Positions 32,298 through 49,148 of a stretch of 64,000 nt of DNA are shown piece after piece. Origin of the DNA: an uncultured Candidatus Bathyarchaeia archaeon (GTDB lineage Archaea > Thermoproteota > Bathyarchaeia > Bathyarchaeales > Bathyarchaeaceae). Below the pieces are notes generated by a model. It did no database searches. It saw only the letters and a program-made list of their open reading frames with translations, and was not told the origin of the DNA. The stretch lies in the NCBI GenBank assembly GCA_964623205.1, contig CAZUQX010000007.1:12665-76664 (forward strand), read 5' to 3'. Every line of letters starts with the position of its first letter. The stretch's first letter is position 1. Made by a program: the position numbers and the translations under genes.

Positions 32298-32317
32298 TTG
32301 TTGAAAACATCCAACTA
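32298..32317 (+). repeat. attL-like site: core TTGTTGAAAA + inner arm CATCCAACTA
   Basis: Read directly: 32298-32307 is the core and 32308-32317 is the arm. The arm is the exact reverse complement of 49129-49138. Confidence 0.65.
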
Positions 32318-32414: not shown

Positions 32415-33785
32415 TTATTCTGCAGGTTCATAAGATTTCCAGAAATGGAGTGTGTTCCCTGCCTTCTTGATAATATCATTATATGTTAATACTTCCACAT
32501 TATGAAAGCTCTCTTTCAATAGCGTTAGTTTCTCTTTTTGAACTTTTGTTAGTCTTGTTCCAGAAAGTGCTCCTATTACGGCTATTCCCTTTGAATTATA
32601 ACCCAATGATGTTTGTTCAATATAATAATCAACAGCTTGATTTATACCATCGTATACTTTCTTTGATAACGTGCCATCCTTATTGAATATCGGGTCATTT
32701 GCTTCTTCAAGTTCGATTAAAACACATTTGTCTAATCCATCGATACGTTCAATTATGAAATCCGCATGTTTTCTTTTGCCGATTTTTGTGTCTCCTGTTA
32801 GTTTTCCATCTGGAGTAATGTCTGAAAGGATTTTCTTGTCGAAATATTCTATACCTAAAAGCCAATAATCTTTTGCTAGCAGTTTATGTATAGCTTTTTC
32901 ATCTTTTTTCACAGAATCTTGGTGTCTTTTAATTTGTTTTTTAAATTTCCTTAAACTTCTCTGCAGTTTTTCATATCTGTCCATCATTTTGGACATTTCT
33001 GGTAGTTTCTTAATTATTTTGTTCTGGTCTCTCCTTGATAATTTAGAAAGTTGTTTAATGAAAAGTCGAGATACTTTAGATTTTAGAAGTGAATTTAATA
33101 ATTCCCCAACCTCTTCTTCACCAAGTTTCTCTATCACTTCAATGAACGTTTTGAGTTGTATTTTTGGAGCTTTGGGTTTGAGTTTCACATACTCCTTAAT
33201 AATTTCTGTCCCTAACGGTGAGTGCTCCAAGGCTTTTTTCAATTTCATTTTTTGTTCGGCAGTCATTCTGTCAAATTCTTTAATCAGATTCTCCAAAATG
33301 TTGTAATATGAATTTTTCAGTTCATTAACCAATGCATTTGGGGATTTACCTTTAAAGAAATGCTGCGGAACTTTTTTAGAAAAATCACCCCAAATTTTAT
33401 GGGAATACTTATTTAGCCTTAATTCATTAACGGCAGAATCTATTTTCTTGCCGTATTTGACATAAACATCAAAATTAATTTTAACCCAATTTTTCCCATT
33501 TTCCGTGGTTTTATAATAGGGTGCAAAGTGTTTTCCCTTGAAAAAAAGCAATTCAAAATTTTCTAATCCATCATATTCCTTTTTCATGCAGCTTAACATG
33601 TGTCTCAATTTGGTGAAACCGTATTTAATCCAATTCTCTTTCTCTTCTTTTGAGGGTCTAAATGCAAAGTAAATTTCTTTCTCCTTCAAATCGTCATAAA
33701 ATCTCCATTGTGTGCCACAACAAAATTTGTCGATTACTTGAAATTCAGGTGATGCGGGAACGCTTTTTAATTGTTTATCAATCAT
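32415..33785 (-). CDS. Shedu-like (DUF4263-type PD-(D/E)xK nuclease) defence protein with long helical N-terminal region
   Basis: 456 aa. The C-terminal part reads KAIHKLLAKDYWLLGIEYFDKK...KRKHADFIIERIDGLDKCVLIELEEAN...INQAVDYY...IAVIG. This follows the DUF4263 pattern as I remember it (pwLlG...Dfl....vivE.K...Q...Y). Confidence 0.55.
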   Translation of the reverse strand: MIDKQLKSVPASPEFQVIDKFCCGTQWRFYDDLKEKEIYFAFRPSKEEKENWIKYGFTKLRHMLSCMKKEYDGLENFELLFFKGKHFAPYYKTTENGKNWVKINFDVYVKYGKKIDSAVNELRLNKYSHKIWGDFSKKVPQHFFKGKSPNALVNELKNSYYNILENLIKEFDRMTAEQKMKLKKALEHSPLGTEIIKEYVKLKPKAPKIQLKTFIEVIEKLGEEEVGELLNSLLKSKVSRLFIKQLSKLSRRDQNKIIKKLPEMSKMMDRYEKLQRSLRKFKKQIKRHQDSVKKDEKAIHKLLAKDYWLLGIEYFDKKILSDITPDGKLTGDTKIGKRKHADFIIERIDGLDKCVLIELEEANDPIFNKDGTLSKKVYDGINQAVDYYIEQTSLGYNSKGIAVIGALSGTRLTKVQKEKLTLLKESFHNVEVLTYNDIIKKAGNTLHFWKSYEPAE

Positions 33786-33829
33786 TTATGTCGGATTCCA
33801 TCTAAACTATCCAATCATTGTGAAGTGAC

Positions 33830-34342
33830 TCAACCACGATTTTTATCAACCTCGTATTCTGCCTCTCCCTCTTCGACTCCTTTCCTCGCCTTTTCATATG
33901 CTTCTCTGGGAATTTGAAGTGAATTCTGATTTAGTTCGTTTCTAAGACATGAAAATTCCTTCAGGATTTTAGTTAGTTTATCAATCGAGCTTTCATTAAC
34001 AATATCAATCTCTCGGAATATTCTCACTCTGTTTCTCAGCGAATTGTATTTGTTGCCAGCATCTTGATGCGAACAGGTTTTTTCATTGGGATTAAGAAAT
34101 GTAATAATTGCTGTTAGTGCAGCAACGACAATAGCCATGAAAGCAGTAATGATTTCATGATAGGAAAATTGTGTTAGGGCTGAGACTCCAGAAAGTGCAG
34201 CCAATACTACTGCGGGCAAACCCAAATATCGGTGAATATTTCGCCATTTGTTTGCAGCTTCAAAATGTCCTTTTGCCGAATATAGGCAATCTTCTTCTAT
34301 TCTTTTCGCCTCATCAACAATCTTTGCTTTCAGGTCTACCAT
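33830..34342 (-). CDS. SLATT-type 2TM effector-like protein
   Basis: 170 aa. An N-terminal helix (YSAKGHFEAANKW) is followed by two TM helices (LGLPAVVLAALSGVSAL / ITAFMAIVVAALTAIITFL) and a helical tail (HQDAGNKYNSLRNRVRIF). Its start lies 11 nt after the stop of the upstream NTase gene, with GAGGT between them. Confidence 0.6.
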   Translation of the reverse strand: MVDLKAKIVDEAKRIEEDCLYSAKGHFEAANKWRNIHRYLGLPAVVLAALSGVSALTQFSYHEIITAFMAIVVAALTAIITFLNPNEKTCSHQDAGNKYNSLRNRVRIFREIDIVNESSIDKLTKILKEFSCLRNELNQNSLQIPREAYEKARKGVEEGEAEYEVDKNRG

Positions 34343-34353
34343 TTTACTACCTC

Positions 34354-35286
34354 TTAATAATATGAAGGAAAATGAGAATCAAAAACTAGGTTCCACCAGT
34401 AGAAAGCGTCAGAAATCTTTTCATTTTTTTCGGTTTCTCTCGCCTTATTTGCACGAATCAAAGCAGTTTGCAATTTTGAATATGCCTCTTGTTTTTGTGC
34501 TTCAGTTTGGCAAGCAGGAATAACCCCTGATATTCCCATTGGGTCTTGAATTCCTGCAAGACTATTACTATACAATTGGCTGAGGATTTTTCTAACATCA
34601 TATGAATACTCAATATAATCCTCACCAGAGGCGTATTTTGTTACACGTAATTCAAGGTAAAAAGATGAAATAGGAACGTTTCTAAAATACTTCCAAGCCT
34701 TTAAGAATCTAACAAGAGGTTTAACCTTGTAACCTTTCTCTTTATTAACATAAGTAACCCATGAATTATGGGCTTTTGGGGAAGAGTTCATCCATCCTCC
34801 ATTCCCATCGGGAATTTCGTAGATGTTATAGCCATTACTGCTTGTTTTGATGAAATCCGCAGGAACAACCTCAGTTGATTCTGAGGCATCTCTTCCAAAT
34901 GGAACCCAAACGGCAGGTGTTCTTACCGAAACGCCTGTATTTGGAAATCTAACATCAAGGGCATTCCGCATCTTACGAAGAGTTGTAAGGGAGTTTTCAT
35001 TTAAATTGCCTGATGGTATAACAGCGAAATAATCGACATCGCTATAACCACGAATACTGGTTGCATTCCCAAATGACCCTGTTTTGAAAAAATGTGTCAT
35101 TCCAAAGCTTGATACAAGACATGCTTTTATTGAATCACGATGTCCCTTTGCAGCCTCCGATTCTGTCAAAGTTGGCGTAAGACGACTATGAAATTCTTTA
35201 AATCCTTCTTCAACGGTCTTAGCCAAATCCTCACAACTCCGATAGTTTTTTCTTGAAGTAAAATATGAAGAATGGAACGCCACCAA
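34354..35286 (-). CDS. SMODS / CD-NTase-like minimal nucleotidyltransferase (putative second-messenger synthase); start uncertain
   Basis: TGSFGNATSIRGYSDVDYFAVIP (G-S...D-x-D), TEVVPADF (third acidic residue), W..SSPKAH and RFLKAWKYF...SSFYLEL. The ORF-track start is a TTG that overlaps the upstream small ORF. An alternative TTG at 35226 lies just after that ORF's stop. Confidence 0.65.
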   Translation of the reverse strand: MVAFHSSYFTSRKNYRSCEDLAKTVEEGFKEFHSRLTPTLTESEAAKGHRDSIKACLVSSFGMTHFFKTGSFGNATSIRGYSDVDYFAVIPSGNLNENSLTTLRKMRNALDVRFPNTGVSVRTPAVWVPFGRDASESTEVVPADFIKTSSNGYNIYEIPDGNGGWMNSSPKAHNSWVTYVNKEKGYKVKPLVRFLKAWKYFRNVPISSFYLELRVTKYASGEDYIEYSYDVRKILSQLYSNSLAGIQDPMGISGVIPACQTEAQKQEAYSKLQTALIRANKARETEKNEKISDAFYWWNLVFDSHFPSYY

Positions 35287-35431
35287 TTCCAGTAAAGATT
35301 ATCCTGAAAGTTTCGTTATTAAGATAGAGTAAGGAATCAATTACGCTGGCTGTTGCGTAAATCCCGATGATAGCGATTATTGGTATAACAAAGAAGTCTT
35401 TAATCGCCTTTTCAACTCTGTCTTCGCCCAT
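35231..35431 (-). CDS. 66-aa two-TM peptide, first gene of the cassette
   Basis: ATG at 35431 is preceded by GGAGGAG (complement of 35438-35444) with a 6-nt spacer. There are two hydrophobic helices (FFVIPIIAIIGIYATASVI, IIFTGIGGVPFFIFYF). Confidence 0.45.
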   Translation of the reverse strand: MGEDRVEKAIKDFFVIPIIAIIGIYATASVIDSLLYLNNETFRIIFTGIGGVPFFIFYFKKKLSEL

Positions 35432-35618: not shown

Positions 35619-38345
35619 TCATAGATTTCCTTCGATAATCCTTTGCTCTTTCTCGGTTATTCCATAAATCTTGTAAACCAGCTCGTCAATTTGGCAGTTA
35701 ATTTTGTCCATTTCCTTCTCAAGTCTAGCCCGTTCATCTGTCATTTTGTCACCAATTTGGTTTACACGAGCTTTGAGAGACAGCATCCTATTAACAAGTT
35801 GTATTAATGTTTGTTCAGATTCTTGAGCAACTTTTATCGGAAGTTCTTCCAGAAACTTAGTTCTATACCTCAAATAGCCTCCACCCATATGCATACCACC
35901 AAATAATACAAAATAAACAAAAGAAACCAGTTTTGAATTGAGCAAGCCGAGAATATATTCTAATGAAGTGTTTTCATTTTTCAATACCCCAAAATAAACT
36001 CCGCCTTGTGGTATTCTCTTCTCATAATCCATGGTAGCAGTTATTCTTAACGCATCTTCAGCGATGACAATTTTTCTTTTTAAACTGTTTACATACCTTT
36101 TTGATGTTGTGCTTATGACTTTTTTTAAGTTATTTTTTGTTATATAGCTGCCTTTGCTAATTGAACTGTATCTATCGAATTGATATTGTTTCAAAATTTC
36201 GAAATCATTAACAATGTTCTCTTCTAATGTTGTTGGTATTCTTAGCCCTTCAGAAATCTTAAGGTATTTTGATAATTTATCGCATTTTCTCAGTAATTTT
36301 ATAACAATGTCAAATTGTTCTTGGCTAATATTAATTGGGAAGATTTTTGAAGGCAAAACTTCCAAATCCCTTCGTGTTAGCCAATAATTTACAAAATTTT
36401 TATTTAAGAATTCATCACGTGTTGATACCGAACCGATATTAATCCTTTTTACATTTTTTCCCTTTGTAAGAAAAAGAAGAACTGGATAATTTGCAGCCTC
36501 TTTAAAAATATCTAAATGGCTAACACTTATAATTGTGCAATGGCTTGAATTCTTTACAATAATTTCCCTCAGTTTTTCAGCAGAACTGGCAGCACAAAAT
36601 TTGTTCGGCAAGATGAAGCCACATTTCCCACCTTCTTGCAACCACTTGAAAACGCTTTCAATAAACAAATAGTAGATGTCGTATTTTCCATAAGCTGAAC
36701 TAAAAACATCTTTCCAATATGTTTTTTCAACAATTTTTAGGTTATCTACTCTAACATACGGTGGATTTCCGATAACAACATCAAATCCTCCTTCTTTCAT
36801 TATGTCATCGAATTCATCTTCCCATCGAAAAGCTATGTTGCCTGCAATATTTTCATCGTCAATTATCGAGTTTCCCCGCCTGATGCTTTCTTCCAGTAAT
36901 GGTAATCTATGTCCCTTCTCAGCTATTTTGAGTAATAGATTGAGTTGTGCAATTTCAACTGCCTGTTTGTCTAAATCGACACCAAAAATATTGTCTTGGA
37001 GAATTTTTGCCTTTTTTGTAAATGGAATATCAATTTTTTGTTTGTCCAACTGAGTTTGACTATAATCCTTGATATTTTTCTTATAATATTCATCGAAAAT
37101 ATCGAATGCTTTAATCAGGAAGCTACCTGAGCCACAAGCAGGGTCTAATACTCTAATTTCTTCTACGTTGACTTTCTTTTTTTCCAGAATTTTGCCTAGA
37201 GTATTCCTAACGATGTAATCAACGATGTAGGTTGGAGTGTAGTAAATTCCCTGTTCTTTTCTATGTATCCCATTTTTGGTGACTCTTGCTCTTTTTGCAG
37301 TCTTTTTCAAAATGTGACTTAAGTATTGCTCATAGATGTTACCTAAAACGTCAGCATCGATTACTGAAAAATCGTAAGAAATAGAGAAATACTTCTCTTT
37401 TGTGAAATACAACCCCTTTATTATTTCAGATAATATTTCGTTATCAATTTCTAGTTGGTCACACAAATGTTTAGTAAATATCTTGCTGTCATAGTGTTCA
37501 TCAAAGTAACTGAAAATCTCTCTGAGACCTTTTACTAATTTTCCTCTGCCTCTGCTTCTCCATTCCCTTAATTTTGAAATCAAAAGTTTTTCTTCAAGCT
37601 CTTTGTCTTCACAATTTCGAATAAAAATAAGCCTGTCTAAGATTCTTTGAACTGACTCGTCCAACTCTTCTTTTGACAACTTTTCTTTTACGTTTAATTT
37701 CGTTATGCTCTTTGTGAGCATTCTTCTATATTTTGTAAAGTCCTCAAGAAGTTGCTCATCTATGGATGCTTTCTTAGTCTTTTTACTCCGTCTTTCTGCT
37801 GTTTCATCTAACAAACCTTTTTCGAAACTTTCTTTCGACAAAAGCCATAATTCATCAAATCTTTCAAGAAAATCGTCATACGTGATGGTTGTAAAATGGC
37901 TCTGTAAATAGTTAGCTGCCTTCCACTCAGCATTAAGAATTTTCACAGCTTCAAAATCTGTAAGAACTGCCCATGTGCAACCTTTATGCCATGCATAGCT
38001 GATTGCCTGCTCAAAATACTCTTCTTTATCCAAATCTGCTTTTAGTGACTTTGCTTCTAGGTAGAATTTTGGAATTCCATCAATTCTGAAACCATAATCC
38101 ACACGCTTTTTAGAAATTGTTTCTTCGGCAGTAACCTCTTTGGAATCTTGAAAATTCCAACCTAGTGCACGAAATAAAGGTTGAATGAAACCAATTTTAG
38201 TCATCTCTTCATTGTATTCTTTGACTCTATTTTCCTCTACAACTTTGTTGTATTTTTCTACAAGTTCTGCGATTTCGCTTCGAGCTTTTTCTTTGTCCAT
38301 TGTGGATACTAATTTTGTGGTTTCGATTATAACTTTTTGGGGCAT
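35619..38345 (-). CDS. Type IIG restriction endonuclease / N6-adenine DNA methyltransferase fusion (Eco57I-like)
   Basis: 908 aa. The N-terminal PD-ExK nuclease is of HsdR-N type (VDYGFRIDG..FYLEAKS). Methyltransferase motifs are VLDPACGSGSFL (motif I) and VVIGNPPYV (motif IV). The C-terminal specificity region ends in KIYGITEKEQRIIE. Confidence 0.85.
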   Translation of the reverse strand: MPQKVIIETTKLVSTMDKEKARSEIAELVEKYNKVVEENRVKEYNEEMTKIGFIQPLFRALGWNFQDSKEVTAEETISKKRVDYGFRIDGIPKFYLEAKSLKADLDKEEYFEQAISYAWHKGCTWAVLTDFEAVKILNAEWKAANYLQSHFTTITYDDFLERFDELWLLSKESFEKGLLDETAERRSKKTKKASIDEQLLEDFTKYRRMLTKSITKLNVKEKLSKEELDESVQRILDRLIFIRNCEDKELEEKLLISKLREWRSRGRGKLVKGLREIFSYFDEHYDSKIFTKHLCDQLEIDNEILSEIIKGLYFTKEKYFSISYDFSVIDADVLGNIYEQYLSHILKKTAKRARVTKNGIHRKEQGIYYTPTYIVDYIVRNTLGKILEKKKVNVEEIRVLDPACGSGSFLIKAFDIFDEYYKKNIKDYSQTQLDKQKIDIPFTKKAKILQDNIFGVDLDKQAVEIAQLNLLLKIAEKGHRLPLLEESIRRGNSIIDDENIAGNIAFRWEDEFDDIMKEGGFDVVIGNPPYVRVDNLKIVEKTYWKDVFSSAYGKYDIYYLFIESVFKWLQEGGKCGFILPNKFCAASSAEKLREIIVKNSSHCTIISVSHLDIFKEAANYPVLLFLTKGKNVKRINIGSVSTRDEFLNKNFVNYWLTRRDLEVLPSKIFPINISQEQFDIVIKLLRKCDKLSKYLKISEGLRIPTTLEENIVNDFEILKQYQFDRYSSISKGSYITKNNLKKVISTTSKRYVNSLKRKIVIAEDALRITATMDYEKRIPQGGVYFGVLKNENTSLEYILGLLNSKLVSFVYFVLFGGMHMGGGYLRYRTKFLEELPIKVAQESEQTLIQLVNRMLSLKARVNQIGDKMTDERARLEKEMDKINCQIDELVYKIYGITEKEQRIIEGNL

Positions 38346-39173: not shown

Positions 39174-40448
39174 TTGGTTACGCCAACCAGAGAGCAAATT
39201 ATAGCTTATGCTTTAGAAAAGTGGCACATGGACGAAGCAAGAATGGGCAATCCAGCCTTCGACATTGAACCCGAACTGAGCGAACTGAAAGAAGAGGGTT
39301 ATTTGAGTCTCGCACAATCTGAACTGATGCGAAACCCAAATCTTGACGAATGGGACGCATATAATGAACGCCTAGATAATCTTCAGAAAACTTTGGAAAA
39401 AGAGCAACAAAACGATGTTAATACAAAAACGGTATTAGATGACATCCTCAATTTTGACGATTTGCTTTTGATTGCCAATAAGGGACAGGGAAAAACAAAC
39501 GCTTTGAAGGTCATAAGCTCAGAATTGCGAAAAATTCCAGATACTAGGGTAATAATCTTTGAGACCTTCCCCAAATTCTGCCTAGAATTCGAGGCTATTC
39601 CCTTCATTAAAATACATGATACCGATGTAACAGAAACAGGGCATACGGTAGACATAGAGAGCTACTTCTTGAGACATGAAAGAGACTACACAGTAAAGCG
39701 GGGACACGAAATAAGAGAAGCTCTAGGCAAGAATAGGGACTTAATCTTCACGCTAGAAATAACCGATATTGAAAGAATCGCATTTTTCGTTTACAGCATT
39801 GTTCAATATTTCTACCGTAGGGCATACCTTCGATTATACAAAGGCTATGAGAAAAGAGAAAAGGTAGTTTTCGTTATCGAAGAATCGCAAAATGTCTTTG
39901 ATTCTAGCACAATTTCAAAGAAGCTCTTCAACAGATTGCGGAAAATTTTCTCTGAAGCTAGAAACTTGGATTTGCATTTTATCATGTGCAGTCAACGACT
40001 CCAAGACCTCAACACCAAGATAAGGGGAAGAACTCGTTTAATGTTGGGAAATGTAAGCCTAGACGACTACGAATTGAAAGTTAGACGGTTGCTCAGAAAT
40101 AGCAAACACAAAACTGACATACTAAACTTTGAAAGGGGAACCTTTCTTTATTCAGCTACGGACAAAATAATCAAATTCCCATTATTTGAGACCACAGAGA
40201 AACCCTATGAACTAAACTACAAAGCCGAACCAAAACAAAAAATTGAACCACAAGAAGAGATTAGACACATGAAAAGGAAAAAGCCGAGCCGATGGCAAAA
40301 GCTGAAAGGCTTCCTAAAATTCTGGTCTTGGGGATACGATATTCCAGAGTATCCAAAAGGAAACAGAATCAAAGAAAACAGCTTTGAGGACGAGGACGAA
40401 GAAGACACAGCTTTTGGCGTTCCCATCGATATGTTAGAAGAAGACTAG
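39174..40448 (+). CDS. P-loop NTPase (FtsK/HerA- or plasmid/virus packaging-like ATPase), acidic C-terminal tail
   Basis: 424 aa. Walker A LLIANKGQGKTN, Walker B KVVFVIEESQNVF, then HFIMCSQRLQDL. The C-terminus is EDEDEEDTAFGVPIDMLEED. Confidence 0.55.
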   Translation: MVTPTREQIIAYALEKWHMDEARMGNPAFDIEPELSELKEEGYLSLAQSELMRNPNLDEWDAYNERLDNLQKTLEKEQQNDVNTKTVLDDILNFDDLLLIANKGQGKTNALKVISSELRKIPDTRVIIFETFPKFCLEFEAIPFIKIHDTDVTETGHTVDIESYFLRHERDYTVKRGHEIREALGKNRDLIFTLEITDIERIAFFVYSIVQYFYRRAYLRLYKGYEKREKVVFVIEESQNVFDSSTISKKLFNRLRKIFSEARNLDLHFIMCSQRLQDLNTKIRGRTRLMLGNVSLDDYELKVRRLLRNSKHKTDILNFERGTFLYSATDKIIKFPLFETTEKPYELNYKAEPKQKIEPQEEIRHMKRKKPSRWQKLKGFLKFWSWGYDIPEYPKGNRIKENSFEDEDEEDTAFGVPIDMLEED

Positions 40449-41683: not shown

Positions 41684-42583
41684 ATGCCTTTCTATCACGT
41701 TAGGATAACCAAGAAAAGCAGAACAACAAACGACAGGCTTGCATTAGACCTCTCCAAAGATGAATTGATGGCGAGAATCGTTAATCCTTTCTTAGAAGGA
41801 AAAACATTCATGTGTGGTGGGGAGCCGATTGACCCTTTTGATGTTGCTGTAATTCACATCAATGAAACAGAAAGAAAATCTGCTGACCTAATTCCTGAAA
41901 TCAAAGCTGAGAGAGCAAGGTCTAGAGTTGCTGTGGCAATTTCTAATGAGTGGTATGTTACTAAGAAGGGGAAAGATGTGACTAGAGAGTTGATTACTCA
42001 TCCTCCAAAAAAGCAAGAAACTGTGAAAGTTACTGTTGAACTGAGTAAAAACGTGTTTATTGTTCATGGCAGAGACCATGAGCCAATGAAAGAGCTAAAA
42101 ACAATGCTCTTGGAATTTGGTCTCAACCCTATTGTTCTTCATGAACAACCAAGCGGAAGCAGAACAATTGTAGAAAAATTAGAGAAATATTCTGATGTTG
42201 GTTACGCTTTTGTGATTTTAACTCCAGAAGATGTTGGATGTTTGAAAAATAAAATTAGGGAAAAGATAAACTCAGTTCTTAAACTTACTGAAGACAAAAA
42301 ACCAAGGTCTTTGATAGCTGACATTCATTCTATAGGAGTAATACGTGCTTATATGCATGAAATGAATGCATATCTTAGTCCTAGAGCCCGTCAAAATGTT
42401 GTTTTGGAGTTTGGCTATTTCATGGGCTTGTTGAGTCGTGACCGAGTTTGTTGTTTGCTTAAAGGAGACGTAGAAAAGCCCTCAGACATGCACGGAATAG
42501 TATACGTTCCTTTCAAGGATTCTGTTGAAGAAAGACGCAGTATGATAATTAAGGAACTTAAAGAAGCTGGTTTTGAACTTTAA
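41684..42583 (+). CDS. TIR-like domain protein (Cap12/PycTIR-type predicted nucleotide-binding/NADase effector) with unknown about 120-aa N-terminal domain
   Basis: The C-terminal half reads NVFIVHGRDHEPMKELKTMLLEFGLNPIVLHEQ...YAFVILTPEDVG...ARQNVVLEFGYFMGLLSRDRVCCLLKGDVEKPSDMHGIVYV. This matches my memory of the TIR-like family pattern (fIvHG.d...a.vllTpDD...aRqNV.fElGyf...PSD..G..y). Confidence 0.65.
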   Translation: MPFYHVRITKKSRTTNDRLALDLSKDELMARIVNPFLEGKTFMCGGEPIDPFDVAVIHINETERKSADLIPEIKAERARSRVAVAISNEWYVTKKGKDVTRELITHPPKKQETVKVTVELSKNVFIVHGRDHEPMKELKTMLLEFGLNPIVLHEQPSGSRTIVEKLEKYSDVGYAFVILTPEDVGCLKNKIREKINSVLKLTEDKKPRSLIADIHSIGVIRAYMHEMNAYLSPRARQNVVLEFGYFMGLLSRDRVCCLLKGDVEKPSDMHGIVYVPFKDSVEERRSMIIKELKEAGFEL

Positions 42584-47843: not shown

Positions 47844-49124
47844 TTATTCTTCCGCTTGCTTTTTCTCTAGTTTCTTAATTACGCCTTTGTAGTCAGCCAA
47901 CAGGTCTAAAGCTGGTTGAACTTGTGTCTGCAAATCAAAAATTGTCTGTTTTGCTTCGGACAGTTCTTTTTGCTGATTATTGGTGGTTTCTTGAAGTAAA
48001 TCCACTCTTGTCTTAAATGCAGAGTTTTCCCTCTCAATCTGCTGAATAGCCTCCTTCATTTTCTCTATTTGTTCCTGTTGATTCTGCCTAGTTTTTCCTG
48101 ATATATCTCCATTGAGAGACAAATTCTTGTAAGCCAAACGAAAGATTTTCTCAGCTTGGTCTTCCAGTTCTTCGTATGTCATGTCAGAAACGCTTACAGA
48201 TTTTGCACAGATTATTTTCGCCATGTCTTTATCTATTCGTCTTAATCTGCTGAAAGTGAATTTTCGGATACAATGAAATCTAACTCTCTTTTTCCCGATG
48301 TTGATGTTTGCTTTAGTTACTAATCTTCGAAGTTTTTTGTTTAATCCTTCATTTGAGATGGGTTTGTCTGGTTTGCTGTTGCACCAGATGTATTTTGGGA
48401 GTTTTCCTTTTTTCTTTTCCAGCACCTTCAAGTATGCATTAACACTTTCTATGGCTTCAGGAGTCAAAAATGAGATTGGCTGAATTCCTGTTTTTTGTCG
48501 TGGCTGACCTATCCATTTGGCAAAGTCTAAGCCTCTCTGTTTAGCATCATCAATAATCTCTCTAAGTTTCTGTGCCTCTATCCTAAGAAAATCCTTGCTT
48601 CCCTGTCCATAGCTAACCGCCAATGAAATCAATGCTTTTTCTGCGACATCTCCAAAATGGAACATCTTGCGTAAATCGTCTTGACTGAATCGATATTCAT
48701 CTTGTGGCATCTGAGTAGGTGCAAAAGAATCCATTACGCCTTCTATTGCTTTACAATTTTGATGATAAAACGCTAATACTGCACTCCCCATTTCATTGCA
48801 ATAGTTTGTTGAATATGGTTTGTTGCTTTTTGGATTAATCTGCTTTCTGAACCAGTTATAGAACTCGATTATTCGGTTAGAAATGTCTCTTTCCCATTCA
48901 TCCAAGTTGTTGAGCATTTTTTCCTGTTTATATTCTTCAATCAATTGTTCTGGGGTCTTGTCAGTCCAGAAACAGTATTTCTTAAATCTGCTCGAATGGC
49001 TCCGCTTCGTAGATTCTTTGCATCTAGGAAAATACTTGAGGTAGTCAGCGTTTTTCTTGCTAATCATTTCTGGTTTTTGGTTTTCTTCATATTCTGTTTT
49101 AGGGTTTATGGATTCAAAATCCAA
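47844..49124 (-). CDS. Tyrosine recombinase / integrase with about 90-aa C-terminal coiled-coil extension
   Basis: 426 aa. VRFHCIRKFTFS (H-x-x-R) is followed by AKSVSVSDMTYEE (candidate catalytic Tyr). The N-terminal region resembles a SAM-like core-binding domain. TTG start per the ORF track. The gene abuts the attR-like site. Confidence 0.7.
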   Translation of the reverse strand: MDFESINPKTEYEENQKPEMISKKNADYLKYFPRCKESTKRSHSSRFKKYCFWTDKTPEQLIEEYKQEKMLNNLDEWERDISNRIIEFYNWFRKQINPKSNKPYSTNYCNEMGSAVLAFYHQNCKAIEGVMDSFAPTQMPQDEYRFSQDDLRKMFHFGDVAEKALISLAVSYGQGSKDFLRIEAQKLREIIDDAKQRGLDFAKWIGQPRQKTGIQPISFLTPEAIESVNAYLKVLEKKKGKLPKYIWCNSKPDKPISNEGLNKKLRRLVTKANINIGKKRVRFHCIRKFTFSRLRRIDKDMAKIICAKSVSVSDMTYEELEDQAEKIFRLAYKNLSLNGDISGKTRQNQQEQIEKMKEAIQQIERENSAFKTRVDLLQETTNNQQKELSEAKQTIFDLQTQVQPALDLLADYKGVIKKLEKKQAEE

Positions 49125-49128
49125 CTTG

Positions 49129-49148
49129 TAGTTGGATGTTGTTGAAAA
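49129..49148 (+). repeat. attR-like site: inner arm TAGTTGGATG + core TTGTTGAAAA
   Basis: Read directly. It lies 5 bp outside the integrase ORF start. The adjacent 49121-49135 CCAACTtgtAGTTGG is itself a 6-bp-arm palindrome. Confidence 0.65.

What the first reader, a model, noticed from the sequence alone, without database searches (positions are those of the whole stretch)
32415..33785. Shedu-like (DUF4263) nuclease directly downstream of the SMODS-SLATT pair, with a non-canonical catalytic motif
Seen in sequence. The 456-aa protein starts 44 nt after the SLATT stop on the same strand. Its C-terminal region reads DYWLLGIEYFDKK...HADFIIERIDGLDKCVLIELEEAN...INQAVDYY. This follows the DUF4263/Shedu PD-(D/E)xK layout, but the position where E-x-K is expected reads E-L-E-E, so there is no lysine. 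The N-terminal about 300 aa are lysine-rich helical sequence with no motif I recognise. Inference, alternative one: an independent Shedu variant is stacked in a defence island. Alternative two: it is a fourth component of the upstream signalling cassette, with a nuclease effector alongside a pore effector. Co-transcription would be unusual, and the altered triad raises the question of whether it is catalytically active or a sensor.
Basis: partly seen in the sequence, partly recalled or inferred. Interest (0 to 1): 0.55.

Follow-up and report, generated by a model that had tools for sequence, protein, structure and literature searches.

The report
Archaeal Shedu nuclease lacking catalytic lysine
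This gene is a stand-alone Shedu-type antiviral nuclease from a small, mostly archaeal clade in which the usual catalytic lysine is always a glutamate, and it merely sits next to, rather than belongs to, the neighbouring CBASS signalling system.

Summary
A 456-aa ORF lies at 32415-33785 (-), 44 nt after the SLATT stop. It matches Pfam SduA_C/DUF4263 (45 bits, cutoff 27). Its AlphaFold model's best PDB matches are E. coli and B. cereus Shedu.

Motif III reads E358-L-E360. Position 360 is Glu in 59/59 members of this small family and Lys in 13/15 of the nearest canonical DUF4263 relatives. Motif I (E296), II (D342) and IV (Q383, with Y387) are all kept. No family-specific conserved Lys or Arg was found. 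The site is therefore BamHI-like (E/D/E/E) and under selection, so it is probably active, but this is not proven.

The link to CBASS is not supported. None of about 25 other family loci has a cyclase or SLATT gene nearby. None of four loci of close cyclase homologues has a Shedu gene. The cyclase has about 2000 close homologues; the Shedu family has about 24 clusters.

The gene lies at the edge of a 17-kb low-GC island with an integrase. That island also carries a type IIG R-M enzyme, a type I CBASS and a TIR protein.

One family member (L050) is translationally coupled to a homologue of that IIG enzyme. This lead is unresolved.

Verdict: a variant of a known kind, of modest interest.

The parts
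32415..33785 (-). Shedu (SduA) family gene, 456 aa
   Evidence: ORF. Pfam SduA_C, 45 bits. 47 full-length homologues. Foldseek top hits are 8ps4 and 8ti9.
33258..33785 (-). N-terminal alpha/beta domain (aa 1-176), presumed sensor or regulatory domain
   Evidence: AF2 model has pLDDT 89.3 and pTM 0.81. No significant PDB or viral fold match. Homologues of this region occur only within this family.
32916..33257 (-). Helical linker region (aa 177-290)
   Evidence: AF2 predicts all-helical structure. Confidence is low for aa 182-261. A long helix at aa 262-290 has high confidence.
32418..32915 (-). DUF4263 / PD-(D/E)xK-fold nuclease domain (aa 291-456). Motif I is E296, II is D342, III is E358/E360, IV is Q383 with Y387.
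   Evidence: Pfam match spans aa 294-438. Conservation is shown. TMt is 0.63 to the B. cereus Shedu nuclease domain.
32706..32714 (-). Codons GAA-CTT-GAA encoding motif III, E358-L359-E360. Glu stands where canonical Shedu has Lys.
   Evidence: Sequence. Position 360 is E in 59/59 family members and K in 13/15 distant relatives. Pairwise register confirmed.
33786..33829 (-). 44-nt intergenic gap between SLATT and Shedu
   Evidence: No terminator-like or sigma-70-like site. No T-run and no Shine-Dalgarno motif. A weak TATA-like AGTTTAGATG sits at -24..-15. No stable RNA structure, z = -0.32.
33830..34342 (-). CBASS 2TM/SLATT_4 effector (neighbouring system, not part of Shedu)
   Evidence: Pfam SLATT_4. 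PADLOC 2TM effector, E = 3.8e-66. NCBIfam SLATT_4, 144 bits.
34354..35226 (-). CBASS CD-NTase (SMODS), 290 aa, starting at TTG 35226
   Evidence: Pfam SMODS. PADLOC cyclase, E = 5e-116. The NCBI protein of 290 aa is 100% identical.
35619..38345 (-). Type IIG restriction-modification enzyme, 908 aa
   Evidence: Pfam HSDR_N + N6_Mtase + Eco57I + TaqI_C. PADLOC REase_MTase_IIG, E = 3e-131. A 52.6%-identical homologue sits directly upstream of a family member in L050.
47844..49124 (-). Integrase at the far end of the low-GC island (about 32.3-49.2 kb) whose near end is the Shedu gene
   Evidence: Pfam Phage_integrase, 24.4 bits, just under the 27.1 cutoff. GC profile. GC3 is 0.28-0.43 for island genes and 0.48-0.53 for flanking host genes.

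Best explanation
The gene encodes a stand-alone, single-gene Shedu (SduA) antiviral nuclease with the 'type I' architecture. That architecture is an N-terminal alpha/beta sensor domain of unknown fold, a long helical linker and a C-terminal DUF4263 nuclease domain. It belongs to a small, mostly archaeal clade in which the motif III lysine has been replaced by glutamate, while motif I Glu, motif II Asp, motif III Glu and motif IV Gln/Tyr are kept. This gives a BamHI-like all-acidic (E/D/E/E) metal-binding site. By analogy with the solved Shedu enzymes (inferred), it would oligomerise through the nuclease domains. It would be held inactive by the N-terminal region and would cut or nick invading DNA once that region senses an infection cue. 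It is not part of the neighbouring type I CBASS (cyclase plus 2TM effector). The two systems, a type IIG R-M enzyme and a TIR protein are simply stacked in a 17-kb integrase-bearing low-GC island. Read-through transcription from the CBASS operon is possible but is not needed for function.
For: Identity: Pfam SduA_C at 45 bits. Foldseek top hits are E. coli SduA 8ps4 (E = 1.4e-5) and B. cereus Shedu 8ti9 (TMt 0.63). NCBI names two homologues as Shedu SduA domain proteins. Motif spacing is E296-D342-E358/E360-Q383, against B. cereus E204-D249-E264/K266-Q295 (Gu et al. bioRxiv 10.1101/2023.08.10.552793). Selection on the site: E296, E358, E360, Q383 and Y387 are in 59/59 members and D342 in 58/59, across a family that diverges to about 33% identity. 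Precedent for activity: BamHI and OkrAI use E/D/E/E with two metals, and Lys is replaced by E, Q or N in several active restriction enzymes (PMC3025578, PMC4081073). Interchangeability: P0175 (E-L-E) and P0201 (E-F-K) share the same N-terminal domain of about 170 aa. Both pass the Pfam SduA_C cutoff. Independence from CBASS: about 25 other non-redundant family loci have no cyclase or SLATT gene by phmmer or tblastn within 5-10 kb, and no neighbour recurs across family loci apart from the IIG shared with L050 and four unrelated two-locus pairs. Four loci of close cyclase homologues lack SduA_C. The cyclase has 1979 homologues at E <= 1e-30, the few carrying source names being bacterial. The Shedu nuclease domain has only 45 representatives among 1.84 billion. 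Homologues elsewhere stand alone, with a TATA-like element about 22-30 nt upstream of the ATG. Their contexts are prophages, integrase islands and defence islands.
Against: No biochemical data exist for any E-x-E Shedu. In EcoRI and EcoRV a K-to-E change abolishes activity, and in BamHI the reverse E113K change does the same. Activity therefore depends on a co-adapted site that I could not inspect at atomic level, because the tools give no coordinates or residue-level superposition. The 44-nt gap has no terminator-like element, so co-transcription with CBASS is plausible. The middle region, aa 182-261, is poorly modelled. The sensed signal is unknown because the N-terminal fold matches nothing solved.
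Confidence: 0.65

Rival explanations
1. The E-x-E clade is a catalytically dead or repurposed Shedu. It would act as a DNA- or metal-binding sensor or scaffold rather than a nuclease.
For: The motif III lysine is absent, and no family-specific conserved Lys or Arg replaces it. K-to-E changes abolish activity in EcoRI and EcoRV.
Against: All other catalytic residues are invariant across 59 sequences down to about 33% identity. Two further acidic or polar residues, N363 and D364, are fixed in the family. That pattern indicates a maintained metal site, not decay. BamHI and OkrAI are fully active with E/D/E/E. The same N-terminal domain is found on either the E-x-E or the E-x-K nuclease module.
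Confidence: 0.17
2. The gene is a functional fourth component of the upstream CBASS operon. It would be a nuclease effector acting alongside the SLATT pore and be activated by the cyclase product.
For: It is on the same strand with only a 44-nt gap and no terminator-like site. GC3 is similar to that of the CBASS genes, at 0.28-0.30.
Against: None of about 25 other family loci has a cyclase or SLATT gene. None of 4 loci of close cyclase homologues has SduA_C. Cyclase plus 2TM effector is already a complete type I CBASS by the PADLOC models. There is no SAVED, STING or other nucleotide-sensor domain by Pfam or fold search. The family sizes differ by about two orders of magnitude.
Confidence: 0.04
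3. The gene is functionally tied to the type IIG R-M enzyme 1.8 kb upstream. In this view an IIG-Shedu pair is the ancestral module, and the CBASS cassette was inserted between the two genes in this genome.
For: In L050 a homologue of the window's IIG (52.6% identical over 631 aligned positions) ends in a stop codon that overlaps the start of a 375-aa family member carrying FIELEDIKD. In the nearest canonical DUF4263 lineages, N6-adenine methyltransferase genes overlap the nuclease gene (L017, L018, L020, L025). Other family members sit beside type I R-M genes (L012) or beside Vsr and C5-methyltransferase genes (L008).
Against: The IIG neighbour appears in only 2 of about 26 family loci. Most members have unrelated neighbours. 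L082 and L083, from the same subclade as L050, have no IIG. The two Shedu proteins share only about 30% identity. R-M genes are common in defence islands anyway. GC3 does not mark the CBASS cassette as a separate insertion.
Confidence: 0.1

Closest known systems
Shedu / SduA (Pfam PF14082 SduA_C, DUF4263): B. cereus B4264 Shedu (PDB 8TI8/8TI9) and E. coli SduA (PDB 8PS4)
   Same: It shares the C-terminal DUF4263 PD-(D/E)xK-fold domain by profile and by fold. Motifs I, II and IV and the first Glu of motif III are kept with matching spacing. The layout of N-terminal domain, helical linker and C-terminal nuclease is the same. It is a single gene without a conserved partner and lies in defence islands and mobile elements.
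   Different: The motif III Lys (K266 in B. cereus) is Glu in every member, and the next residue is usually acidic too, where relatives have Arg or Lys. N363 and D364 are fixed in this family only. The N-terminal domain matches neither the E. coli clamp domain, nor the B. cereus sPC4/Whirly domain, nor any other solved structure. The family is almost entirely archaeal: Bathyarchaeia, Nitrosopumilus, Aenigmatarchaeota, Thaumarchaeota.
BamHI / OkrAI type II restriction endonucleases (PD-(D/E)xK superfamily with an E/D/E/E active site)
   Same: The catalytic constellation is the same: a helix Glu, a strand-2 Asp and E-x-E on strand 3 in place of E-x-K (PMC3025578). This is an established precedent for an active two-metal site without the lysine (PMC4081073).
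   Different: There is no detectable sequence or specific fold relationship beyond the shared superfamily core; BamHI is not among the Foldseek hits. BamHI is a sequence-specific dimeric restriction enzyme with a partner methyltransferase. The resemblance is convergent chemistry, not family membership.
Other SduA_C lineages with a variant motif III (P0190 LIELESPTD, P0193 VEIEDPKKK, P0195/P0198 VEIEKP)
   Same: All are bona fide SduA_C proteins, at 67-70 bits, with Glu at the position of the catalytic Lys.
   Different: They have different N-terminal regions and only about 33-39% identity in the nuclease domain. Some carry a Lys one residue later (E-I-E-K), which this family lacks.
Type I CBASS (CD-NTase plus 2TM/SLATT effector)
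   Same: The relationship is physical adjacency on the same strand only.
   Different: The Shedu gene has no co-occurrence with CD-NTases elsewhere and no nucleotide-sensor domain.
KELShedu two-component system (KELA DNA-binding protein plus KELB DUF4263 nuclease; PMC12577705)
   Same: It has a DUF4263 nuclease and shows that some Shedu systems have a second gene.
   Different: No conserved upstream or downstream partner gene exists in this family.

Membership tests
Shedu / SduA (PF14082, DUF4263) | SduA_C/DUF4263 domain detected by the family profile above the curated cutoff | tested here: met
   Pfam PF14082, E = 1.6e-11, 45 bits against a cutoff of 27, profile positions 2-158 of 159. PADLOC SduA models down to 1.2e-8.
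Shedu / SduA (PF14082, DUF4263) | Fold of the nuclease domain matches solved SduA structures | tested here: met
   Foldseek top 8 hits are all Shedu: 8ps4_A at E = 1.4e-5, and 8ti9 with TMt 0.59-0.64. No residue-level superposition was available.
Shedu / SduA (PF14082, DUF4263) | PD-(D/E)xK motifs I (Glu), II (Asp) and IV (Gln) | tested here: met
   E296 in 59/59, D342 in 58/59 and Q383 in 59/59 members, shared with canonical relatives. Spacing matches B. cereus E204/D249/Q295.
Shedu / SduA (PF14082, DUF4263) | Motif III E-x-K, the catalytic lysine (K266 in B. cereus) | tested here: not met
   E358 is present, but position 360 is Glu in 59/59 family members against Lys in 13/15 nearest canonical relatives. 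No family-specific conserved Lys or Arg was found. This is a conserved catalytic residue of the characterised members, not the criterion that defines the Pfam family. I therefore file the gene as a divergent variant.
Shedu / SduA (PF14082, DUF4263) | Type I architecture: variable N-terminal regulatory domain, helical linker, C-terminal nuclease | tested here: met
   AF2 models, compared with the E. coli SduA description.
Shedu / SduA (PF14082, DUF4263) | Single-gene system with no obligatory partner, found in defence islands or mobile elements | tested here: met
   No neighbour family recurs across 24 clustered loci, except the IIG in 2. Contexts include R-M, AIPR, OLD, DUF2326, integrases and a prophage.
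Shedu / SduA (PF14082, DUF4263) | Homotetramer or octamer assembly, metal-dependent DNA cleavage and antiviral protection | not testable with these tools
   These need biochemistry and infection assays.
CBASS accessory or effector gene | Recurrent genomic co-occurrence with a CD-NTase | tested here: not met
   None of about 25 other family loci has one. None of 4 cyclase-homologue loci has SduA_C.
CBASS accessory or effector gene | A cyclic-nucleotide sensing domain (SAVED, STING, etc.) fused to the effector | tested here: not met
   No Pfam domain in aa 1-290 passes its cutoff. The N-terminal model has no significant PDB match.
CBASS accessory or effector gene | Co-transcription with, and dependence on, the cyclase | not testable with these tools
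   The gap lacks terminator-like sites, but this needs RNA-seq or RT-PCR and genetics.
BamHI-like E/D/E/E PD-(D/E)xK nucleases (mechanistic class, not a homology family) | Glu at the third catalytic position together with Glu (helix), Asp and Glu | tested here: met
   E296, D342, E358 and E360 correspond to BamHI E77, D94, E111 and E113. Equivalent geometry was not tested.

The most novel reading that the evidence does not exclude
The E-x-E clade could be a mechanistically distinct branch of Shedu. It would carry an all-acidic, BamHI-like two-metal site, with the extra fixed N363/D364. Its activity or licensing might be tied to adenine methylation systems. An IIG-Shedu operon, as in L050 with overlapping stop and start codons, would be the ancestral module, and here it would have been split by insertion of a CBASS cassette. 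That would make it a composite R-M/Shedu defence rather than a classical stand-alone Shedu.
Probability: 0.12. Interest if true: 0.55.

Novelty: new variant of a known kind. Interest (0 to 1): 0.3.

Why it matters
Both solved Shedu enzymes carry the canonical D...E-x-K site, and the mechanistic work I read describes B. cereus Shedu as having all the standard PD-(D/E)xK motifs. A clade that has fixed Glu at the lysine position while keeping every other catalytic residue suggests the DUF4263 core tolerates a BamHI-type site, provided these proteins prove active. It also offers a natural test of what the lysine does in Shedu. The clade extends Shedu into archaea (Bathyarchaeia, Nitrosopumilus, DPANN) and adds an uncharacterised sensor domain. 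In practice, the analysis shows that tight same-strand adjacency to CBASS is defence-island stacking here, not a new four-gene CBASS. That is a useful caution for operon-based annotation of defence systems.

Tried and rejected
(1) Sequence searches against PDB gave only weak matches confined to the C-terminal 'ILTYDD' region of 8ps4. This held for the protein, the family profile and a canonical relative. Residue-level equivalence to K266 therefore rests on bridging alignments and motif spacing, not on a direct alignment or superposition.
(2) NCBIfam has no model for this protein.
(3) I looked for a compensating lysine. The only basic positions conserved in the family but not in relatives are 392 and 419. 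Position 392 is K/R in 52/59 members, but the window's own protein has Thr there. Position 419 is R/K in 53/59. K/R399 is shared with canonical Shedu. None is a convincing replacement.
(4) The N-terminal domain gave no significant PDB or viral fold match. Sub-threshold hits to zincin, SprT or M61-like peptidases have TM <= 0.3, and there is no HExxH motif, so I rejected that lead.
(5) GC3 does not distinguish the CBASS genes from Shedu or IIG, so it says nothing about an insertion.
(6) An att-site search at the island borders found only 10-mers, about what chance gives, although two lie side by side.
(7) The sigma-70 promoter scan does not apply to an archaeon and found nothing in the gap. The RNA fold of the gap is unremarkable.
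(8) The upstream gene in L082 is not an IIG fragment.
(9) The host organism could not be named, because the cluster look-up returned no names. It is archaeal-like on the basis of FBP aldolase/phosphatase.
Full report
OBSERVATION. The window has an ATG-initiated ORF of 456 aa at 32415-33785 on the minus strand. The identical protein is called in NCBI and Logan assemblies. The upstream ORF on the same strand (33830-34342) is a SLATT_4/2TM CBASS effector. Before it lies a CD-NTase/SMODS gene. The gap between the SLATT stop and the Shedu ATG is 33786-33829, which is 44 nt.

IDENTITY. Pfam SduA_C (PF14082, formerly DUF4263) matches aa 294-438 over essentially the whole profile. The match has E = 1.6e-11 and 45 bits against a cutoff of 27. 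Several PADLOC SduA models also hit. An AlphaFold2 model built on 44 homologues has mean pLDDT 76.7, with high confidence in aa 10-120 and 270-450. Its eight best PDB matches are all Shedu structures. They are E. coli SduA 8ps4 (E = 1.4e-5) and B. cereus Shedu 8ti8/8ti9, with TM-score 0.59-0.64 normalised to the B. cereus nuclease domain. Two homologues are named 'Shedu anti-phage system protein SduA domain-containing protein' by NCBI. The gene is therefore a Shedu-family protein.

THE MOTIF. Gu et al. give the B. cereus catalytic residues as motif I E204, motif II D249, motif III E264/K266 and motif IV Q295 (bioRxiv 10.1101/2023.08.10.552793). The window protein has E296, D342, E358/E360 and Q383 (plus Y387) with nearly the same spacing.
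- The register at motif III is secure. The closest canonical DUF4263 relatives align without gaps across it (E = 3e-23): window 'DFIIERIDGLDKCVLIELEEANDPIFNKDG' against L017 'DFYVEKYDGY--ADIIEIKRCNEDLFNKNG'.
- I aligned 59 family members with 15 distant relatives. Position 360 is Glu in 59/59 family members and Lys in 13/15 relatives.
- E296, E358, Q383 and Y387 are invariant in both sets. D342 is present in 58/59 family members and 15/15 relatives.
- N363 (57/59) and D364 (58/59) are fixed only in the family.
- I found no family-specific conserved Lys or Arg that could replace the missing lysine. Position 392 is K/R in 52/59 members, but it is Thr in the window protein. K/R399 is shared with canonical Shedu.
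- The tools return no coordinates, so I could not check whether a lysine reaches the site in three dimensions.

IS E-x-E UNUSUAL? Within Shedu it is a clade character, not a private mutation. All 41 family ORFs in the fetched loci have E-[LIF]-E, and so do all family representatives. Other bona fide SduA_C lineages, at 67-70 bits, also carry Glu there. Examples are P0190 (LIELESPTD), P0193 (VEIEDPKKK) and P0195/P0198 (VEIEKP, with a Lys one residue later).

Within the wider PD-(D/E)xK superfamily the variant is established. BamHI (E77, D94, E111, E113) and OkrAI are active two-metal enzymes with Glu at this position. Lys is replaced by Gln in BglII and NotI and by Asn in MspI (PMC3025578, PMC4081073). 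The same paper notes that E113K disables BamHI and that K-to-E disables EcoRI and EcoRV. The two site types are thus not interchangeable by a single substitution. An E-x-E Shedu must have a co-adapted site.

All the other catalytic residues stay invariant across a family that diverges to about 33% identity, which argues for a maintained site. In addition, P0175 (E-L-E) and P0201 (E-F-K) share one N-terminal domain of about 170 aa on different nuclease variants. I therefore judge the enzyme probably active, at about 0.6-0.65. This is inference only.

ARCHITECTURE. A separate model of aa 1-176 is confident, with pLDDT 89.3 and pTM 0.81. It has no significant match in PDB (best E = 0.09) or in the viral structure library. 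TM-scores are at most 0.3, with weak zincin/SprT-like hits and no HExxH motif. Homologues of aa 1-284 occur only inside this family. Residues about 177-290 are helical and poorly modelled for aa 182-261, ending in a long confident helix. This layout is that of E. coli SduA: an N-terminal domain, a helical linker and DUF4263. It falls in the unclassified 'Type 1X' category of Gu et al..

FAMILY SIZE AND HOSTS. A full HMMER scan of 1.84 billion cluster representatives with the nuclease domain found only 45 proteins at E <= 1e-3. About 24 of these belong to the family. Named hosts are Bathyarchaeia, Nitrosopumilus, Thaumarchaeota and Aenigmatarchaeota MAGs. Gu et al. counted only 47 archaeal Shedu among 7,687.

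RELATION TO CBASS. I fetched 77 loci around family members and relatives from genome, metagenome and viral collections. Apart from the window's own locus, none holds a homologue of the window's cyclase, SLATT or 66-aa ORF, by tblastn at E <= 1e-3 or phmmer at E <= 0.01. I clustered the neighbours within 5 kb in 24 non-redundant family loci. The only neighbour shared with the window is the IIG enzyme, in L050. Two further family loci also lack CBASS.

The reverse survey agrees. The cyclase has 1979 homologues at E <= 1e-30, the listed ones at 58-77% identity, and the few that carry source names are bacterial. Four of their loci show cyclase-SLATT or cyclase-4TM pairs and no SduA_C. Cyclase plus 2TM effector is by itself a complete type I CBASS according to the PADLOC models. 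The Shedu protein has no nucleotide-sensor domain. The 'fourth component' reading is therefore not supported.

TRANSCRIPTION. The gap contains no terminator-like hairpin or T-run, no Shine-Dalgarno motif and no notable RNA structure. Family members elsewhere are preceded by 80-150 nt intergenic regions, with TATA-like CTTAAnAAG elements about 22-30 nt before the ATG. That is consistent with own promoters and short leaders. The window has a weaker AGTTTAGATG at -24..-15. Read-through from the CBASS operon and an own promoter are both possible. Sequence alone cannot decide between them.

SETTING. The gene is the first gene of a low-GC island, about 32.3-49.2 kb, with GC 0.33-0.39 against 0.45-0.49 in the flanks. 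GC3 is 0.28-0.43 in the island and 0.48-0.53 in the flanking host genes. The island ends with an integrase at 47844-49124, whose Pfam score is marginal. It also carries:
- the type I CBASS;
- a 908-aa type IIG R-M enzyme at 35619-38345;
- a CAP12/Pycsar-type TIR protein at 41684-42583.
The flanking genes are host housekeeping genes: an HDAC-like gene, FBP aldolase/phosphatase and ArgRS. Other family members lie in a prophage or viral contig (L002/L077) and in an integrase-flanked island with Vsr and C5 methyltransferases (L008). Others sit next to type I R-M (L012), AIPR (L032), an OLD nuclease (L014) or DUF2326 (L013).

AN UNRESOLVED LEAD. In L050, a homologue of the window's IIG enzyme has the same domain order and is 52.6% identical over 631 aligned positions. 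Its stop codon overlaps the start of a 375-aa family member carrying FIELEDIKD. In the nearest canonical DUF4263 lineages, N6-adenine methyltransferase genes overlap the nuclease gene (L017, L018, L020, L025). This raises the possibility that IIG-Shedu is an older module split here by the CBASS cassette. However, only 2 of about 26 family loci show it. Relatives of the L050 protein do not, and composition does not mark the CBASS genes as foreign to their neighbours. I give this reading about 0.1.

VERDICT. The gene is a divergent member of the Shedu family, from a mostly archaeal clade with a fixed BamHI-like E-x-E motif III and an uncharacterised N-terminal domain. It is most likely an independent single-gene defence system stacked beside CBASS and a type IIG R-M enzyme in a mobile island. 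It is a new variant of a known kind, and interest is modest (0.3). The decisive work is biochemical: activity of the wild type and of E360 mutants, plus a residue-level structural superposition.

Noticed in passing
window 35231-35431 (-) and 35226-35286: A 66-aa hydrophobic ORF has its own TATA-like element and AGGAGG upstream. It ends 2 nt before the real TTG start (35226) of the cyclase. The 310-aa 'long' cyclase ORF overlaps it and is probably an over-extension. NCBI calls the cyclase at 290 aa, and the PADLOC profile starts at aa 22. The small ORF was not seen upstream of four cyclase homologues.
   Followed up: partly
L050 1305-5296 (Ga0209211_10000418): A type IIG R-M enzyme is 52.6% identical to the window's enzyme at 35619-38345. 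Its stop codon overlaps the start of a 375-aa E-x-E Shedu family member, which suggests translational coupling.
   Followed up: partly
L017 8004-10708; L018 3330-6043; L020 9803-12119; L025 7818-10480: In the nearest canonical (E-x-K) DUF4263 lineages the nuclease gene overlaps an N6-adenine methyltransferase gene. These are HSDR_N_2+N6_Mtase or HsdM-like. They look like two-gene R-M-type operons, or like insertions into type I R-M loci.
   Followed up: partly
P0175 vs P0201 (protein representatives): Two proteins share a nearly identical N-terminal region of about 170 aa. One carries the E-L-E nuclease module with the family's helical middle region, and the other a canonical E-F-K module. This indicates domain shuffling between the two nuclease variants.
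   Followed up: no
window 32298-32317 and 49117-49148: Both borders of the low-GC island carry TTGTTGAAAA next to the 10-mer CATCCAACTA / TAGTTGGATG, which is inverted between the two sides. On the right side it is part of a hairpin, ATCCAACT-tg-TAGTTGGAT. These may be att or terminal-repeat remnants. A single 10-mer match is expected by chance.
   Followed up: partly
window 41684-42583 (+): A CAP12/Pycsar-effector-type TIR domain protein (Pfam 112.7 bits) has no cyclase next to it. It may be an orphan effector or part of an unrecognised system in the same island.
   Followed up: no
window 39174-40448 (+): A 424-aa protein has a P-loop (GQGKTN) and only weak AAA hits. It lies between the IIG enzyme and the TIR gene, and its function is unknown.
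   Followed up: no
L002 / L077 (IMGVR_UViG_3300050645_000218): A 67%-identical family member sits beside portal, capsid (Linocin_M18-like) and other virion genes on a contig classed as viral. This is a virus- or provirus-borne Shedu.
   Followed up: no
L083 3264-6224: Two SduA_C genes (334 aa and 407 aa) lie in tandem on one strand, with an overlapping 247-aa gene between them, next to an archaeal histone-fold gene.
   Followed up: no
L079 1-4867: A locus of a close cyclase homologue carries two SMODS genes in tandem. A type IIG enzyme with the same domain order as the window's lies about 3.5 kb away, so IIG and this CBASS clade co-occur at least twice.
   Followed up: no
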